NCBI RefSeq assembly: GCF_963921235.1
Contig: NC_086108.1
Coordinates: 54,500,001-54,564,000 of the forward strand
Source: Mobula hypostoma
Taxonomy: Eukaryota
Reading direction: 5' to 3'
Length of the DNA: 64,000 nt
This document shows positions 2,015-48,962 of this stretch, piece by piece. The notes under the pieces are model-generated. The model did no database searches. It had not been told where the DNA came from and saw only the letters and a list, made by a program, of their open reading frames with translations. The translations under genes and the position numbers were made by a program. The first letter of the stretch is position 1. Each line of letters begins with the position of its first letter.

Positions 2015-3309
2015 AGCAACACACACAAAATGCTGGAGGAACTCAGTAGGTGAGGCAGTATCTATGGAAAAAAAGTACAGTCGATGTTTCGGGCTGAAGC
2101 TCTTCGGCAGGACTTGAGATAAAAAAGGAGCTGAGTAGATTTGAAAGGTGGGGGGAGGGGAGAGAGAAACGCTAGGCGATCGGTGAAACTTGGAGGGGGA
2201 GAGATGAAGGAAACGGATAGGAAGTTGATTGGTGAAAAAGACAGAAGGTCATGAAAGAAAGAAAGGGGAGGAGGGGAGGACACCAGAGGGAGGCAATGGG
2301 CAGGTAAGGAGATAACATGAGAGAGGGACAAGGGGATGAGAAATGGTGAAGTGGCTGGGGGTGGGGGGGAGGCATTACTGGAGGTTTGAGAATTCGATGT
2401 TCATGCCATCGATTAGATTGGAGGCTACCCAAACGGAATACAAGATGTTGTTCCTCCAACCCATGTGGCCTTATCCCAAAAGTGGAGGAGGCCATGGATG
2501 GACATATCGGAATGGGAATGAGAAGTGGATTTAAAAAGGCTGGCCACTGGGAGATCCTGCTTGTTCTGGCAGACGGAGTGTAGATGCTCAGCGAAGCAGT
2601 TTCCCAATCGACGACAGATCTTACTGATATACAAAGGGCCACACCGGGAGCACCGGACACAGTATATCACACCAGCAGACTCACAGGTGAAGTGTTGCCT
2701 CACCTGGAAGGACTGTTTGGGGCCCTGAATGGAAGTGAGGTGTAGAGACAGGTGTAGCACTTGTGCCGCTTGCAAGGGTTAGTGCCAGGAGGGAGATCAG
2801 TGGGGAGGGACAGCGATCCCTGCGGAAAGCAGAAAGTTGGGGAGGGGGGAGGGAAAGATGTGCTTCGTGGTGGGATCCAGTTGGAAGTGGCGGAAGTTTC
2901 AGGGAATTATGTGCTGGACGCAGAGGCTGGTGGGGTGGTAGGTGAGGACAAGAGGAACCCTATCACCCTATCCCTGGTAGCATCTACGCTCCGTCCACCA
3001 GAACAAACGCGATCTCCCAGTGGCCACCCATTTTAATTTCACTTCTCATTCCGATATGTTCATCCATGGCCTCCTCCACTGTCGGGATAAGGCCACACTT
3101 AAACAACATCTTATATTCTGTTTGGGTAACCTTCAACCTAATTGATGGCATGAACATTGATTTCTCAAACTTCCAGTCCTGCCAAAGGATTTCGGCCCGA
3201 AACATCGACTGTACTTTTCTCCATAGATGCTGCCTGGCCTGCTGAGTTCCTCCAGCATTTTGTGTATGTTGCTCGGATTTTCAGCATCTGCAGATTTTCT
3301 CATTTCTGA
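2015..3309. mobile_element. Penelope-like element, inverted arrangement (minus arm ~2015-2980, plus arm ~2983-3309)
   Basis: GIY-YIG motif GVIYCVRCSRCGPLYI in ORF 2425-2775. pLTR 3' ends face outward at both ends. Degenerate 14-bp TSD TTAGTTTGAATCTT (2001-2014) / TTAGTTTAAGTCTT (3310-3323). Confidence 0.85.
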
Positions 3310-17140: not shown

Positions 17141-18252
17141 AGATTGTAAAATGTCATTTCCTGTACACACATGTAAAGGAGAACAAAATAATTGTTACTC
17201 CTGATCCAATGCAGCACTATAAAGCCAGAATAAGATAAAAGAATCTAATAATTTAAAAAAAACCATGATAGCTTATACAGTGGTGCTAGAAAGCTTGTGA
17301 ACCCCATAAAATTTTCTCTATTTCTGCATAATTATGACCTAAAATGTGATCAGATTTTCATGCAAGTCCTAAAACTAGATGAAGAGAACCCAATTATATA
17401 AACACAAAAACATTATAAGCAGCACACATTATTATGTTGTTTGTGTTATTTATTTAATTGGGTTCTTTTTGTCTATTTATTTATTTATATATTGAGAAAA
17501 TTGTTCCAATGTTACATGTAATTGTTGGAAAAAGCACATGAACTTTTGGGGTAACGTCGTCTACAAAAGCTTTTGGAGTTGTGTTCCAATCAACAAGATA
17601 GAATTGGAGGTGTGGGTTGTAGAGGTGCCCTGCCCTATAAAAAAGATGCACAAAGTCAGGCTACTGACAGAGGCCGCTCTTCTCAAGAAAGATCTGTTTA
17701 TGTGCACCATACCTCAATCAAAACAACTTTCAGAGGACCTCAGAAGAATTGTAGAGATGCATGAAGCTGGAAAATGCATTTCTGAAGACCTGCGTGTTCA
17801 TTAGTCCACAACAGGAGAAAATGTCTACAAGTGGAGGAAACTGAGTATTGTTGCTACTCTCCCTAGAAGCAGGCATCTTGCAAAGATCACATGGAGTGCA
17901 CAATGTGCAGCGGCGAAGGAGGTGAAAACGAACCCAAGGGCAACAGCTAAAGACCTGCAGAAATCTCTAGAATGTGCTAAAGTCTCTGTTCACAGAATGA
18001 TACTCATGGAAGGTCACGACGGAGGAAACCACTGCTCTCCAAACAAAAAAAATTGCTGCACATCTCAAGTTTGCAAAGGCCACTTGGATGTTCTACAACG
18101 CTTCTGGGACAATGTTCTCTGGAAAGATAAAACAAAAGTTGAAATTTCTGGCAGAAATGGACATTGCTGTTTTAGGAGGAAAAAGGGCACTGTACACCAA
18201 CAGGAAAGTGTCATCCCAACTGTGAAGCATGGTGGAAGGACCATTATTGTTT

Positions 18253-20046
18253 TCGATGATTTTAAGTTCCCTGGCCCCCACCGCTTTATTTTCAGCATGG
18301 ATGTCCAGTCCTTATATACTTCCATCCCCCATCAGGAAGGTCTCAAAGCTCTACGCTTCTTTTTGGATTCCAGACCTAATCAGTTCCCCTCTACCACCAC
18401 GCTGCTCTGTCTAGGGGAATTAGTCCTTACTCTTAATAATTTCTCCTTTTGCTCCTCCCATTTCCTCCAAACTAAAGGTGTAGCTATGGGCACCCGTATG
18501 GGTCCTAGCTATGCCTGACTTTTTGTTGGCTTTGTGGAACAATCTATGTTCCGTGCCTATTCTGGTATCTGTCCCCCACTTTTCCTTCGCTACATCGACG
18601 ACTGCATTGGCGCTGCTTCCTGCACGCATGCAGAACTCGTTGACTTTATTAACATTGCCTCCAACTTTCACCCTGCCCTCAAGTTTACCTGGTCCATTTC
18701 CGACACCTCCCTCCCCTTTCTAGATCTTTCTGTCTCTGTCTCTGGAGACAGCTTATCCACTGATGTCTACTATAAGCCTACTGACTCTCACAGCTATCTG
18801 GACTATTCCTCTTCTCACCCTGTCTCTTGCAAAAACGCCATCCCCTTCTCGCAATTCCTCCGTCTCCGCCGCATCTGCTCTCAGGATGAGGCTTTTCATT
18901 CTAGGACGAGGGAGATGTCTTCATTTTTTAAAGAAAGGGGCTTCCCTTCCTCCACTATCAACTCTGCTCTTAAACGCATCTCCCCCATTTCACGTACATC
19001 TGCTCTCACTCCATCCTCCCACCACCCCACTAGGAATAGGATTCCCCTGGTCCTCACCTACCACCCCACCAGCCTCCGGGTCCAACATATTATTCTCCGT
19101 AACTTCCGCCACCTCCAATGGGATCCCACCACTAAGCACATCTTTCCCTCCCCCCCCCTCTGCATTCCACAGGGATCGCTCCCTACACAACTCCCTTGTC
19201 CATTCGTCCCCCCCCATCCCTCCCCACTGATCTCCCTCCTGGCACTTATCCGTGTAAGCGGAACAAGTGCTACACATGCCCTTACACTTCCTCCCTTACC
19301 ACCATTCAGGGCCCCAAACAGTCCTTCCAGGTGAGGCATCACTTCACCTGTGAGTCGACTGGGGTGATATACTGCATCCGGTGCTCCCGATGTGGCCTTT
19401 TATATATTGGTGAGACCCGACGCAGACTGGGAGACCGCTTTGCTGAACATCTACGCTCTGTCCACCAGAGAAAGCAGGATCTCCCAGTGGCCACACATTT
19501 TAATTCCATATCCCATTCCCATTCTGACATGTCTATTCACGGCCTCCTCTACTGTAAAGATGAAGCCACACTCAGGTTGGAGGAACAACACCTTATATTC
19601 CGTCTGGGTAGCCTCCAACCTGATGGCATGAACATTGACTTCTCTAACTTCCGCTAAGGCCCCACCTCCCCCTCGTACCCCATCTGTTACTCATTTTTAT
19701 GCACACATTCTTTCTCTCACTCTCCTTTTTCTCCCTCTGTCCCTCTGAATATACCTCTTGCCCATCCTCTGGGTCACCCCCCCCCCGTCTTTCTTCCCGG
19801 ACCTCCTGTCCCATGATCCTCTCGTATCCCCTTTTGCCTATCACCTGTCCAGCTCTCGGCTCTATCCCTCCCCCTCCTGTCTTCTCCTATCATTTTGCAT
19901 CTCCCCCTCCCCCTCCAGCTTTCAAATCCCTTACTCACTCTTCCTTCAGTTAGTCCTGACGAAGGGTCTCGGCCTGAAACGACGACTGCACCTCTTCCTA
20001 TAGATGCTGCTTGGCCTGCTGCGTTCACCAGCAACTTTGATGTATG
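18253..20046 (+). mobile_element. young 5'-truncated Penelope-like element (Neptune-like): RT, Cys linker, GIY-YIG endonuclease, pLTR
   Basis: RT motifs SMDVQSLYTSIP, QTKGVAMGTRMGPSYA, RYIDD, LPFLD; linker CKRNKCYTC; GVIYCIRCSRCGLLYIGET. One stop (18516-18518) and a frameshift at the poly-C near 19155. Perfect 10-bp TSD ATTATTGTTT (18243-18252 / 20047-20056). Confidence 0.95.
19952..19987 (+). ncRNA. minimal type I hammerhead ribozyme motif with a mutated cleavage triplet
   Basis: agtc-CTGACGA-agggtctcggcct-GAAA-cg-AC-gact; sister copies have cg-TC-gact. Confidence 0.7.
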
Positions 20047-20699
20047 ATTATTGTTTGGGGCTGCTTTGCTGATTCAGGGCCTCTACAGCTTGCAATCATT
20101 AAGGGAACAATGAATTCAACATTGTATCAAGATATTTAACAGGAGAACTTCAGGGTAGCAGTCCGTCACCTGAAGCTTAATGGAATTTGGATAATGCAAC
20201 AAGACAAAGATCCAAAAGACACGAGTAAGGCAACAAAGGAATGGATTAAAAAGAACATTTCTTTTTGCAGTGGCCAAGTTAAAGTCCTGACCTTAATCCT
20301 ATGTTGCAGTAGGACCTGAAGCAAGCAGTTCGTGCAAGGAAGCCCACCAACATCCCAGAGTTGAAGCTGTTTTGTAAGTAGGAATGGCCTAAAATTCATC
20401 CCAGCTGATGTGCAGGACTGATCAACAGTTACTGGAAATGTTTGGTTGAAGTTATTGCTATACAAGGGGCTCACACCAGTTACTGAAAGCAAAGGTTCAC
20501 ATACTTTTCCCAATGAATGCATGTAATATTGGATCATTTTTCTTAATAAATAAATGAACAAGTATAATGAATAATGATTTTTGTTATTTATTTAATTGGG
20601 TTCTCATTATCTAGTTTCAGGACATGTGAAGGTCTGATCACCTTTTAGGTCATATTTATGGAGAAACAGACAACAGGATTCACAAACTAGCACCACTGT

Positions 20700-45060: not shown

Positions 45061-46275
45061 AATTTGCCTGCTTGTAAGATTTTTTTTTGCTGTTTGGAAT
45101 AAATAATTTGTTTTGTGACTTGTTTTTTTTTTGCTTCCAGTTAGTTGGCACCCCAAACTGCTAGCTTTCACTTTGCACAAATAATATATTTGCTCACTGG
45201 AAGGGAAGAGTCTCGATGATGTGTGCAATTTGATACCTCGCTTCATGGTAAAGGACAAGGGTTAAATCGGTCTGTATTCCCTTAGGAGCTGAGCCCACCT
45301 CAGATTTGCAATTTAATCACTTAAGCATTTCTCCTAAATGTGGTTCGTCAAATGGAAAGACAATTGACAAAAAGCTATATTTGAGGCTATTGGAAACATA
45401 ACATAATGCTAAACGGTCCCAAAATGGTTATATTCATAACACTAATTGAACTTGAAGTTGTTAAATTACGATTAAATTTTGTGTTCTGAAAAATTGTCTT
45501 TTAATCGATTCTGTGTGAATGGCATCAAACCAACGGAATGTGCTAGTGTCACAATAATAGGGTCATCTGCTTCAGAACATGACATATTAACCAGAAGATC
45601 AGAGCAAACTTGACTGATGCCTAGACTGATTAGGTGAGCTCCCATTTGAGTAAGGTACTGCAGTGTAGTTATTGTCTTTCTTTTCCCAATATTTTTATTG
45701 ATTTCTACATAGAAGAATACAGAGTTCAAGAGAATACATATTAAAAAACAAAAGAAAAAATATAATAATACCAGGTACAGTATATTGAATCACATTAACA
45801 AACTCCTTACTCTATATGCATATAGATCAGAATTAATTCGTAAATTAGAATATAAACAATTTTATTAAAAATGATCTACACCCACTACCAAAGTCAAAGC
45901 TGAAAGACATTGTCTTAAAATTCTACATTGGAGAATAATCCTATTCTTTTTTGGAGTTTCAAAAAATGGGCAAAAAAGAGAAAAGGGTTGAAGCCATGAG
46001 TAAATACACCAGAGTTATGTAAAACTAGCAATTCCAAAATACTTTGGAGGATTTTTTTCCCCACTCTTGCTGTATTAATCCTTTATTCCAAAGGCATGGA
46101 ATACTAATTGCATACTTGAGAACTTTCCAAACTGCTGTTCTTTAAGTAGCGCATAAGTCACACATTTGATTAAATGAGAACAACAGGAATTCTGCAGACG
46201 CTGGAAATTCAAGCAACACACATAGAAGTTGCTGGTGAACGCAGCAGGCCAGGCAGCATCTCTAGGAAGAGGTGC

Positions 46276-46311
46276 AGTCGACGTTTCAGGCCGAGACCCT
46301 TCGTCAGGACT
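46276..46311 (-). ncRNA. minimal type I hammerhead ribozyme motif, intact core
   Basis: Minus strand: agtc-CTGACGA-agggtctcggcct-GAAA-cg-TC-gact. Confidence 0.8.
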
Positions 46312-46589
46312 AACTGAAGGAAGAGTGAGTAAGGGATTTGAAAGTTGGAGGGGGAGGGGGAGATCCAAAATGATAGGAGAAGACAGGAGGGGGAGGGATG
46401 GAGCCAAGAGCTGGACAGGTGATAGGCAAAAGGGATACGAGAGGATCATGGGACAGGAGGTCCGGGAAGAAAGACAAGGGGGGGGGAACCCAGAGGATGG
46501 GCAAGGGGTATATTCAGAGGGACAGAGGGAGAAAAAGGAGAGTGAGAGAAAGAATGTGTGTATAAAAATAAGTAACAGATGGGGGCAAG

Positions 46590-46617
46590 GCTGCCTTCCA
46601 AGCAGTTGACCTGGGTT
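46590..46617 (+). pseudogene. 28-nt tRNA-Gly(TCC) fragment (anticodon arm to T arm)
   Basis: GCTGCCTTCCAAGCAGTTGACCTGGGTT versus vertebrate tRNA-Gly-TCC GCTGCCTTCCAAGCAGTTGACCCGGGTT as I recall it; one C>T at a CpG. Confidence 0.85.
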
Positions 46618-46986
46618 AATGCCCCACCTCCCCCTTGTATGGGTAGCCTCCAACCTGATGGCATGAACATCGACTTCTCTAACTTCCGCTAATGCCCCAA
46701 CTCCTCCTCGTACCCCATCTGTTACTTATTTTTATACACACATTCTTTCTCTCACTCTCCTTTTTCTCCCTCTGTCCCTCTGAATGTACCCCTTGCCCAT
46801 CCTCTGGGTCGTTCCCCCCCCCGTCTTTCTTCCTGGACCTCCTGTCCCATGATCCTCTCGTATCCCTTTTGCCTATCACCTGTCCAGCTCTTGGCTCCAT
46901 CCCTCCCCCTCCTGTCTTCTCCTATCATTTTGGATCTCCCCCTCCCCCTCCAACTTTCAAATCCCTTACTCACTCTTCCTTCAGTT

Positions 46987-47022
46987 AGTCCTGACGAAGG
47001 GTCTCGGCCTGAAACGTCGACT
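46987..47022 (+). ncRNA. minimal type I hammerhead ribozyme motif, intact core
   Basis: agtc-CTGACGA-agggtctcggcct-GAAA-cg-TC-gact; stem I agtc/gact, GUC cleavage triplet. Confidence 0.8.
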
Positions 47023-48962
47023 GCACCTCTTCCTAGAGATGCTGCCTGGCCTGCTGCGTTCACCAGCAACTTTCATGTTTGATTAAATGAGATTCTCTTA
47101 AATCTACATTGATGCTGGAATGTCTATTATGAGTTAGTCTTGTATCTGTAATATTTGAACTCAGAAATTAAAGTACTTGTTATTTAATATTTCAGTAACA
47201 TCTGAGTAATATTCTAAATATATTGTTTGAACAAGCATTCTTTGTTTACATAATTCATTACAGGTTATATGTAATATGTGAATGGCATACATTATTACAC
47301 CACCACATGATATGTGAATGCTTCAGTAGAGTAAAACAAAGTAGACACATTTTCCCAGGCTCCAATGTTTTTCTTTCAATTAATTTCTGAAACTACAAAA
47401 CATAACAATGGTGATGAGTAGGTTTTTAAATGAACCTGAGATGGCTACCTACTTGTTGAAGGGAATGCTTGAGCTAAAAAATGTACAACATATTTTTCTT
47501 TGGAAAAGAGAGAGAGAAATTCAAATTTTTAAAAAGTGCAGCACATATTCCTTCACAAGGGGAGAGAGACATTAGAGTTTTAAAAAAAGCAGGAAATGGA
47601 CAAAATTCATGGGTTTGCTTAGAAGGTTAATGATTCCAACCAAACCAGCTGAAATGAGTTTTGCTGATATTGTGAATGTAATATAGGAACATTTAGAACC
47701 AAAACCATTGTAGACTACAGAATGGTTTAGGTTATATAAGTGAAATCAGAAGAAAGAGGTGTCCATTTGTGGCTGAACTGAAGAGATTGTCAGGGATTTG
47801 TCAGTTCAATGTTGGGCTTCAAGATGCACTGAGAGATGGTTTAGTTCGTGGACTCTTACAAGAAAGCATTCAAAAATGACTCCTAACTAAAGTACAACTT
47901 GCATTTAAAAGGGCAGTTTAAATAACTGCATTAATGGAAACAGCAGACAGAGATGCAATTGAGTTGCATTCAGGAATGAAAGTGAATGTTAACAAAATTG
48001 CAATGTCTAAACAGAAACTCGCCTGGCCAAACAAGTTGTGTTACCGTTGTGGCAGGGGCTCACATTCACCAGACCAATGCAGGCTTAAAGGAAAAACTTG
48101 CAGAAAATGTAACAATGTAGGTCAAATACAAAGGGCATGTTGGGCAGACAAAATTAAGTGGACTGTACAGGGAAGAGAAAGAGATAAAAAGTTAAATTTC
48201 AGATTCAAAAAGAGCACTGGTCTGCATATAATGATGAGAATGACACAGGACTTGGTAGCTTTGAGATTTACAATGTGAAAGCTGACAAAAGACAAGCAAT
48301 GCGGCTTACACCAGAAGTGAATGGCAAATTAATTAAAATAGAATTGGACACTGGCTCAGCTGGTTCAGACATTCCACAAAATGAGTTTGAATGGCATTTC
48401 AAAGGTACTGGACTGAAGTCTGCAGATATCCAACTAAGTATTTATACTGGAGAAATAGAGAACTCCTGTGGGAATGACACTCGTAACAGGGAAATACAAC
48501 AACCAATAAGCCACGTTGGCTTATATGTTGTAAAAACAGAAAGCAGGCATTGTGGGGCCATAACTGGCTGAGACAACCACAATTTCATTTGCGACCCGTC
48601 CACTATTTGCATGCCACATCCCTGCAATGGAGTCAACTGAAAGCAAATTAAGAGAGGTACTGAATGGTGCCACAGCAGTGTTCAAGGATGGAATTGGAAA
48701 ACTGAAACATATCAAGGATGGATAAAATAGTGTTAAATGAAAATGCCAGGTTTACAAAGGCAGTCTGGTTCCTTATACAATCCATGATAAAGTAGCCAGT
48801 GAGCGAGATCACATGGAGGCTGGAGGAAGTTTTGAGTGGAGTTCATGGGCAACTCCAGTGGTCCCAGTAGCCAAGAAGAATGTGTCTGTCAGGATCTGTG
48901 GTCATTTTCAGGTTACCATCAGCCCAGTACTGAAAGCAGGTCAACACCCTCTCCCCAGGATA

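What the first reader, a model, noticed from the sequence alone, without database searches (positions are those of the whole stretch)
46165..47092. Inverted Penelope insertion with a captured tRNA-Gly fragment at the inversion junction
Seen: one insertion bounded by a perfect 15-bp TSD. It has four parts: an inverted pLTR; a 28-nt tRNA-Gly(TCC) piece starting at the first base of the anticodon stem (46590-46617); a displaced ~23-nt piece of the element's own post-stop sequence (46617-46639); then the endonuclease tail and pLTR. Known: PLE insertions often carry inverted 5' pLTRs. Inference: the RT made several template jumps, one onto a cellular tRNA or tRNA fragment, before copying back to form the inverted arm. 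I am not aware of tRNA capture being a described step in PLE inversion, but I cannot check the literature.
Basis: partly seen in the sequence, partly recalled or inferred. Interest (0 to 1): 0.72.

Follow-up and report, generated by a model that had tools for sequence, protein, structure and literature searches.

The report
Penelope insertions capture tRNA pieces
A two-armed Penelope jumping-gene insertion holds a 28-base piece of a glycine tRNA at its seam, and three other copies in this genome hold tRNA pieces at the same kind of seam, likely because the element's copying enzyme hopped onto broken tRNAs before the two arms were joined.

Summary
A perfect 15-bp TSD frames a head-to-head Penelope-like insertion. 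Its seam holds tRNA-Gly(TCC) G27-U55 (27/28 to the main gene), absent from family copies and SINE heads examined, and contigs of three runs of one sample carry the seam unchanged.

The capture recurs. tRNA-centred searches found three more TSD-framed inverted copies with tRNA at the seam: Gly 1-52, Asp 1-54, and Ala ~24-72 plus genomic trailer. The three trailer-less pieces all fit a 3' end at T54, the cut that releases tRF-3b (one needs a lost G), and two start at the mature 5' end.

Copy-back does not fit: the inverted arm has a ~37-nt tail the other arm lacks. Best model (0.55): two cDNAs primed at opposite nicks, one RT jumping onto a tRNA piece. RNA ligation and repair filler are not excluded.

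tRNA chimeras are known for L1; my searches found none for Penelope elements. The scan's earlier notes seen report host-DNA capture here, not tRNA. New variant, rare, no function implied.

The parts
46165..46179 (.). Left target-site duplication, 15 bp
   Evidence: 15/15 identical to 47078-47092
46180..46216 (-). Long 'tail' extension at the outer end of the inverted arm; absent from the right arm
   Evidence: Same sequence follows the pLTR in many family copies; tail match 63 nt from the anchor versus 22 nt on the right arm
46217..46584 (-). Inverted pLTR arm; inner end at position 3206 of the full-length copy L275
   Evidence: 361/371 complementary to the right arm; position
46585..46589 (.).
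   Evidence: Sequence; does not match the element's antisense continuation; a like 8-mer lies at about 46500-46507 in the same arm
46590..46617 (+). tRNA-Gly(TCC) piece G27-U55; last T shared with the next part, so the 3' end is T54 or U55
46617..46639 (+). Displaced 23-nt element piece (stop codon and start of 3' UTR, L275 positions 3183-3205), which in the element directly precedes the inner end of the inverted arm (3206)
46640..46692 (+). End of the GIY-YIG endonuclease coding region with stop codon at 46690-46692
   Evidence: 95% to the window copy at 19602-20050, whose ORF scores Pfam PF01541 above cut-off
46693..47077 (+). Forward pLTR ending at the short-tail site
47078..47092 (.). Right target-site duplication, 15 bp
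   Evidence: a contig across this boundary also lies in runs X5 and X6 of organism B

Best explanation
This is one Penelope-like insertion whose two arms were likely made as two separate cDNAs primed at the two staggered nicks, and whose tRNA piece was likely picked up when one reverse transcriptase jumped onto a tRNA broken in the T-loop before the arms were joined. Shown: one TSD, two arms with different outer ends, a tRNA piece and a displaced element piece between them, and recurrence. Inferred order: the right-nick RT starts at the short-tail site and copies to 46640; jumps back on the element RNA to the point where the left cDNA ends and copies 23 nt; jumps to a tRNA-Gly at T54/U55, just 5' of m1A58; copies to G27; and its end is joined to the left cDNA, which started at the long-tail site. 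Whether the tRNA was already cut at 54/55 or was entered internally at the T-loop is open. The product is a rare accident with no function implied.
For: (1) Recurrence inside single TSD pairs: Gly 1-52 at G000:C58, 13-bp TSD; Asp 1-54 at C9, 13-bp TSD, full-length forward arm; Ala ~24-72 plus trailer at C2, 13-bp TSD. Of 18 exact matches to the Gly core, 16 are full-length genes or pseudogenes and both fragments sit at Penelope seams; for Asp 1 of 28 is a fragment and it sits at a seam. (2) RNA signature: two pieces begin at tRNA nucleotide 1 with no leader and match a gene exactly for 51 and 53 nt; the three trailer-less pieces all fit an end at T54. tRF-3b is 22 nt and its A4 is A58 (PMC9021294, passages), so it starts at 55. 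(3) Two primed cDNAs: one short plus one long tail in 9 of 9 other head-to-head copies and in the three captures listed; the Ala capture shows the same pairing by eye. A purified PLE protein nicks and extends both strands and starts at two sites that bracket the tail (PMC11167929, parts 1-2 of 4 read). (4) Jumps: element-derived fillers at 5 of 22 other inverted seams; the Asp case has a ~32-nt repeat between tRNA and arm. (5) Little or no homology at the tRNA 3' joins (1 nt, 0-1 nt, 0 nt).
Against: Only three trailer-less cases. The C58 case ends at G52 unless one G of a GGG run was lost. The Ala case carries about 50 nt of genomic flank running past a T4 tract, plus 16 unexplained nt, so it may be DNA-templated. 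RNA ligation before reverse transcription predicts the same polarity and the same lack of homology, and authors of R2 work leave both open (PMC11371274, passages). In a head-to-head element any insert is sense to one arm, so orientation alone says nothing: the tRNA 3' end faces the short-tail arm in three cases and the long-tail arm in one. In roughly a third of the inverted copies the two inner ends lie within 80 nt of each other in the element, which hints at coupling or fold-back in some copies. The seam was not recovered in organism B, although B holds the right boundary. No capture turned up for nine other tRNA types searched. I read no paper showing template jumping by a PLE RT.
Confidence: 0.55

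Rival explanations
1. RNA ligation: a T-loop-cut tRNA piece was ligated (RtcB type) to a broken element RNA, and the RT simply read through the chimera.
For: Predicts a sense join with no homology at a nuclease cut, as seen. Named as a route for L1 chimeras (PMC13174262, passages) and left open for R2-U6 joins (PMC11371274).
Against: In the window and in the Asp case a displaced or repeated element piece lies between tRNA and arm, so a jump is needed anyway; in the Asp case the RT reached nearly the same element position twice, as at an RNA end.
Confidence: 0.17
2. Host repair filler: the two cDNA ends were joined by an end-joining polymerase that copied short patches from nearby element sequence and from a tRNA or a tRNA gene.
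For: Short templated patches from adjacent sequence are typical of such repair (my knowledge) and common here. The Ala capture includes genomic flank matching the gene at C78 at 47/50.
Against: A DNA template gives no reason for two pieces to start at nucleotide 1 and three to end at 52-55. A five-term paper search for RNA-templated tRNA capture at breaks returned 0 papers, which is weak evidence either way.
Confidence: 0.12
3. One reading: one cDNA ran through all jumps and then folded back on itself to make the inverted arm (self-priming on an antisense template).
For: Proposed for PLE inverted repeats (PMC3846280, passages). In the Asp case the inverted arm is contained in the upstream pLTR and starts 4 nt from it. 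Near-equal inner ends in some copies.
Against: Here and at C58 neither arm contains the other: the inverted arm has a tail that the forward arm lacks, and the forward arm reaches further in.
Confidence: 0.08
4. The tRNA piece primed plus-strand synthesis on the first cDNA and was kept when its RNA part was copied.
For: Polarity fits: tRNA 3' end joined to element sense in all four cases.
Against: A primer needs pairing; shared sequence at the 3' joins is 0-1 nt, and join positions in the element differ in every case.
Confidence: 0.04
5. A later event: a tailless tRNA retrocopy or SINE piece landed in the seam afterwards, or a 55-bp micro-inversion flipped 46585-46639.
For: Tailless tRNA retrocopies exist here (L127, Gly 1-36 with an 11-bp TSD). 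Flipping 46585-46639 would make the 23-nt piece continue the left arm. Seam not seen in organism B.
Against: No duplication flanks the tRNA piece. With at most about 240,000 element ends a random landing within 5 bp of a seam has p below about 1e-3 per fragment (my estimate), and three further cases exist. C58 and C9 show the same layout with no flipped piece. SINE heads differ in this region.
Confidence: 0.04

Closest known systems
EN+ Penelope-like insertions with an adjacent inverted 5'-truncated copy and optional 30-40 bp tail (PMC8557442, passages; PMC3846280, passages)
   Same: RT plus C-terminal GIY-YIG, pLTR, inverted arm, tail at one end, TSD; sequences captured between pLTRs are reported in the rotifer.
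   Different: The seam holds a processed tRNA piece. 'tRNA' occurs 0 times in PMC3846280 and once, on selenocysteine, in PMC8557442.
tRNA/LINE-1 chimeras, 21 human loci (PMC13174262, passages)
   Same: tRNA fragment and retroelement inside one TSD pair.
   Different: Those are mostly 5' halves (1-37), antisense to L1 and at the outer 5' end, explained by twin priming on the tRNA. Here the piece is internal, between two element arms, and ends in the T-arm.
U6/LINE and U5/L1 sense chimeras (PMC4476161, passages); R2 transgene-ncRNA 5' joins (PMC11371274, passages)
   Same: Small RNA joined in sense to a 5'-truncated element by template switch or ligation; U5 pieces are 3'-truncated.
   Different: Different RT class and RNA; not at an inversion seam.
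Tailless tRNA retropseudogenes (PMC5322556, passages)
   Same: 3'-truncated tRNA ending in a loop.
   Different: Those stand alone with their own TSD and 2-18 nt of target complementarity; this piece has neither.
Poseidon element of Anolis in vitro (PMC11167929, parts 1-2 of 4)
   Same: Both strands nicked and extended; two RT start sites bracketing the tail.
   Different: The parts read report no jumps to other RNAs and do not treat inversion seams.

Membership tests
EN+ Penelope-like element | RT followed by a C-terminal GIY-YIG endonuclease in one ORF | tested here: met
   L275 547-aa frame: RVT_1 E 3.5e-5 and GIY-YIG E 0.0016, both below Pfam cut-off; window copy GIY-YIG 24.5 bits, above cut-off 22.6
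EN+ Penelope-like element | pLTR in partial tandem or inverted arrangement | tested here: met
   L275 has an upstream partial pLTR and an inverted arm; 24 of 58 copies with the 5' junction in view were called inverted
EN+ Penelope-like element | Optional 30-40 bp tail at one end | tested here: met
   Short and long ends about 35-40 nt apart
EN+ Penelope-like element | Hammerhead ribozyme motif in the pLTR | not tested
   Rfam scan of 46100-47200 listed no hammerhead family; no dedicated model was run
Neptune/Nematis clade | CX2-5CxxC motif upstream of GIY-YIG (PMC8557442) | tested here: met
   C-x4-C-x2-C upstream of the GIY-YIG motif in the window copy's ORF 19136-19657
Neptune/Nematis clade | RT phylogeny places it in the clade | not tested
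   No reference set in hand; no tree built
tRNA/L1-type twin-priming chimera | tRNA antisense to a single element arm and abutting one TSD | tested here: not met
   tRNA lies between two element arms, 410 and 460 nt from the TSDs
Tailless tRNA retropseudogene | Own TSD flanking the truncated tRNA | tested here: not met
   No direct repeat around 46590-46617 among repeats of 12 nt or more, none shorter seen by eye
tRNA-derived SINE piece | Sequence matches a SINE head rather than a tRNA gene, in many copies | tested here: not met
   All 14 other genome matches are tRNA genes; SINE heads listed differ across this region
Template-jump product | RT shown to move from element RNA to the acceptor RNA | not testable with these tools
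   Needs biochemistry; footprint shared with RNA ligation

The most novel reading that the evidence does not exclude
Penelope reverse transcriptase jumps end-to-end onto the 5' three-quarter tRNA remnant left when tRF-3b is cut off at 54/55, so inversion seams of this 100,000-copy family are a fossil record of germline tRNA cleavage and an in vivo marker that inverted PLE copies are two cDNAs joined in the middle rather than fold-backs.
Probability: 0.35. Interest if true: 0.65.

Novelty: new variant of a known kind. Interest (0 to 1): 0.48.

Why it matters
How Penelope-like elements make their inverted copies is unsettled: self-priming on an antisense template was proposed from genomes, two-strand priming was seen in vitro. 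A captured RNA of known polarity and known ends marks which strand was reverse-transcribed and where the enzyme could enter. With over 100,000 element ends in one genome, a full seam catalogue would test both models directly and show whether T-loop-cut tRNA remnants exist in the germline. It would add PLEs to the retroelements that pick up small RNAs. The locus itself has no sign of function.

Tried and rejected
Rfam on 46100-47200 did not see the tRNA piece; its 6 weak hits (MIR408, snoR125, PrrB/RsmZ, DdR5) are below gathering score and reflect the inverted repeat. ARAGORN finds no tRNA gene in the window.

tRNA searches without a Penelope capture: iMet 17 of 17 loci examined; Cys 20 of 20; Gln 21 of 21; Ser 17 of 17; Glu-CTC 21 of 21; Arg/Trp 18 regions fetched for 41 matches; Val 11 fetched of 46; Tyr 9 fetched of 50, the unfetched ones lying mostly in gene clusters; Lys-TTT core with a non-A at position 58, 0 matches. 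Gly 5' core gave two new places, both SINE heads. Anchor-plus-A-box search gave 6 matches: the Asp case (positive control), 4 element point variants, 1 chance. His, Pro, Leu, Ile, Phe, Thr, Lys-CTT, Glu-TTC, Gly-GCC and elongator Met were not searched. Exact-core patterns miss diverged copies.

L201 first looked like a fifth case; it is another LINE-like element inserted into a Penelope copy with an antisense tRNA-Asn 3' half, so it was dropped. L278 (Asn with trailer beside an older inverted arm) has an imperfect TSD and at most a 10-nt second arm; not counted. L322 and L323 are 17-nt matches within chance.

Organism B: no contig laid on the seam in X5 or X7, nor in X9 of organism C; the tool says this is no proof of absence. 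No empty site was seen in the rows shown. Folding the seam gave z 0.05. No long reads were laid.

Literature: searches (listings and abstract starts; passages of eight papers and half the text of one) showed no report of tRNA capture by a PLE. The library lacks most subscription papers and I opened no supplements; the L1 chimera table (Table S3 of PMC13174262) could hold T-loop-ended cases.

Full report
Observation. The insertion spans 46180-47077 between perfect 15-bp repeats. The arms are 361/371 complementary. From left to right on the + strand: long tail (46180-46216), inverted pLTR (to 46584), 5 nt of filler, tRNA piece (46590-46617), displaced element piece (46617-46639), endonuclease end with stop at 46690-46692, forward pLTR (to 47077). 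The 28-mer has 15 genome matches: 14 tRNA-Gly(TCC) genes and this site. It differs from the commonest gene by one C>T at a CpG and equals gene L013; chance expectation 8e-6. Contigs of runs X1, X4 and X2, one sample and probably the assembly's source, carry the seam with no difference. Organism B, about 1.5% different in the flanks, has a contig across the right boundary, but none was laid on the seam. So the seam is not an assembly error, and its age relative to B is open.

The element. [quoted passage not shown] No tree was built. A 20-nt pLTR anchor has 116,227 matches. Of 58 copies with the 5' junction in view, 24 were called inverted, two of them the Gly captures; among the other 22, five have fillers of 25-107 nt made of element sequence and none has a foreign filler over 5 nt (two apparent long gaps there are split hits). 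Inversion and displaced pieces are therefore ordinary for this family, and the tRNA is not.

Recurrence. I searched from the tRNA side. Gly(TCC): 18 core matches, 16 full-length, two fragments, both at Penelope seams. The second, at C58, reads TSD, long-tail inverted arm, 9-nt slip repeat, tRNA 1-52, one T, 1.9-kb forward arm, short tail, 13-bp TSD. Asp(GTC): 28 matches, one fragment, 1-54 exact to genes L209-L211, between an inverted arm and a full-length element, with a ~32-nt repeat after it and a 13-bp TSD. Ala: 22 matches, one capture, tRNA ~24-72 plus about 50 nt of flank from the C78 gene and 16 unexplained nt, between a short-tail inverted arm and a 28-nt long-tail stub, 13-bp TSD. Nine other tRNA types gave none and ten were not searched (see Tried and rejected). 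One candidate was dropped (L201) and one left uncounted (L278). Other truncated tRNA copies of 94% identity or more that do not sit at Penelope seams were also seen (L127, L198, L200, L201, L203), so four of about nine such copies lie at seams. With at most about 240,000 element ends, a chance landing within 5 bp of a seam has p below about 1e-3 per fragment (my estimate).

What the ends say. Two pieces start at nucleotide 1 with no leader, which points to processed RNA. The window piece ends at T54 or U55 (one T is shared with the element), Asp at T54, and C58 at G52 or, if one G of GGG was lost, at T54. tRF-3b is 22 nt and its fourth base is A58 (PMC9021294, passages), so it begins at 55, and 1-54 is the remnant of that cut. 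The same passages say m1A stalls RTs, so entry just 5' of A58 on an intact tRNA would leave the same mark; truncations in loops are the rule for tailless retrocopies (PMC5322556, passages). None of the four pieces shows more than 1 nt of homology at its 3' join. At the 5' joins, C58 shows about 6 nt of likeness between the tRNA start and the arm's antisense continuation, as expected where two cDNA ends anneal. The Ala case, running past a T4 tract, does not prove an RNA source.

Mechanism. Copy-back from one cDNA needs one arm to contain the other. Here the inverted arm has a tail the forward arm lacks, and the forward arm reaches 76 nt further in. One short plus one long tail is seen in 9 of 9 other head-to-head copies with both ends in view and in the three captures listed. 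A purified PLE protein extends both nicked strands and starts at two sites bracketing the tail (PMC11167929, parts 1-2 of 4). Two cDNAs joined in the middle is thus the better model. The displaced piece ends at element position 3205 and the inverted arm begins at 3206, which suggests, as inference, that the right RT re-entered the RNA where the left cDNA stopped. It then moved to the tRNA. Orientation gives no extra support, since any insert between head-to-head arms is sense to one of them. RNA ligation (0.17) and repair filler (0.12) remain live; copy-back (0.08), tRNA priming (0.04) and a later event (0.04) fit poorly.

Comparison and novelty. Small-RNA capture by retroelements is known: 21 tRNA/L1 chimeras, mostly antisense halves (PMC13174262, passages), U6 and U5 chimeras with several LINE clades (PMC4476161, passages), ncRNA joins in R2 insertions (PMC11371274, passages). 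PLEs are known to frame captured sequence between pLTRs (PMC3846280). Eight paper searches listed nothing on tRNA capture by a PLE; the library lacks most subscription journals and I read no supplements. The scan's own index had no finding with these words; the 8 notes shown of 117 for this genome concern host-DNA cargo, ribozyme sites and fold-backs, not tRNA.

Verdict. Real, recurrent and rare. It is a new variant of small-RNA/retroelement chimeras, seen here in a Penelope-like family, with a shared T-loop breakpoint resting on three cases. Its value is as a mechanistic marker that a genome-wide seam catalogue and one in vitro assay could test. Interest 0.48.

Noticed in passing
L201 = G000:C66:49466175-49470216, minus strand: A LINE-like element with a short-repeat tail sits inside a Penelope copy with an 11-bp TSD and carries an antisense tRNA-Asn 3' half ending in CCA shared with the target: an L1-style twin-priming tRNA chimera in a non-mammalian LINE.
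   Followed up: partly
L278 = G000:C21:187359408-187361478, minus strand: Older insertion: 41-nt inverted Penelope end joined by 5-nt homology to a pre-tRNA-Asn copy that ends at the T4 terminator; imperfect 11-bp TSD.
   Followed up: partly
L127 = G000:C68:55666588-55666623: Tailless tRNA-Gly 5' half (1-36) with an 11-bp TSD and a few extra bases each side.
   Followed up: partly
L016-L045, L148, L275: Head-to-head copies pair one short-tail and one long-tail arm in every case with both ends in view, matching the two RT start sites found in vitro.
   Followed up: partly
window 46590-46712 versus 46217-46584/46713-47077: The arm cores differ at only 2 of 357 positions, while the ~120-nt spacer carries about five differences from tRNA or family; the arms may have been homogenised.
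   Followed up: no
L216, L219, L220, L225, L229, L231, L232, L233 (C82, C83, C86): A tRNA-iMet 1-35 half with a shared non-tRNA continuation is repeated through tRNA-cluster duplications.
   Followed up: no
window 18240-20050 and 17805-18240: A 5'-truncated copy of the same Penelope family lies directly after, and in frame with, a Tc1-like transposase remnant (Tc1 label from recall).
   Followed up: no
L295 = G000:C91:54898160-54901176: A Penelope copy ends a few bases upstream of a tRNA-Cys gene.
   Followed up: no
L275:4330-4400: The full-length copy of the Asp case has a pLTR variant with a deletion in the region of the recalled hammerhead core.
   Followed up: no
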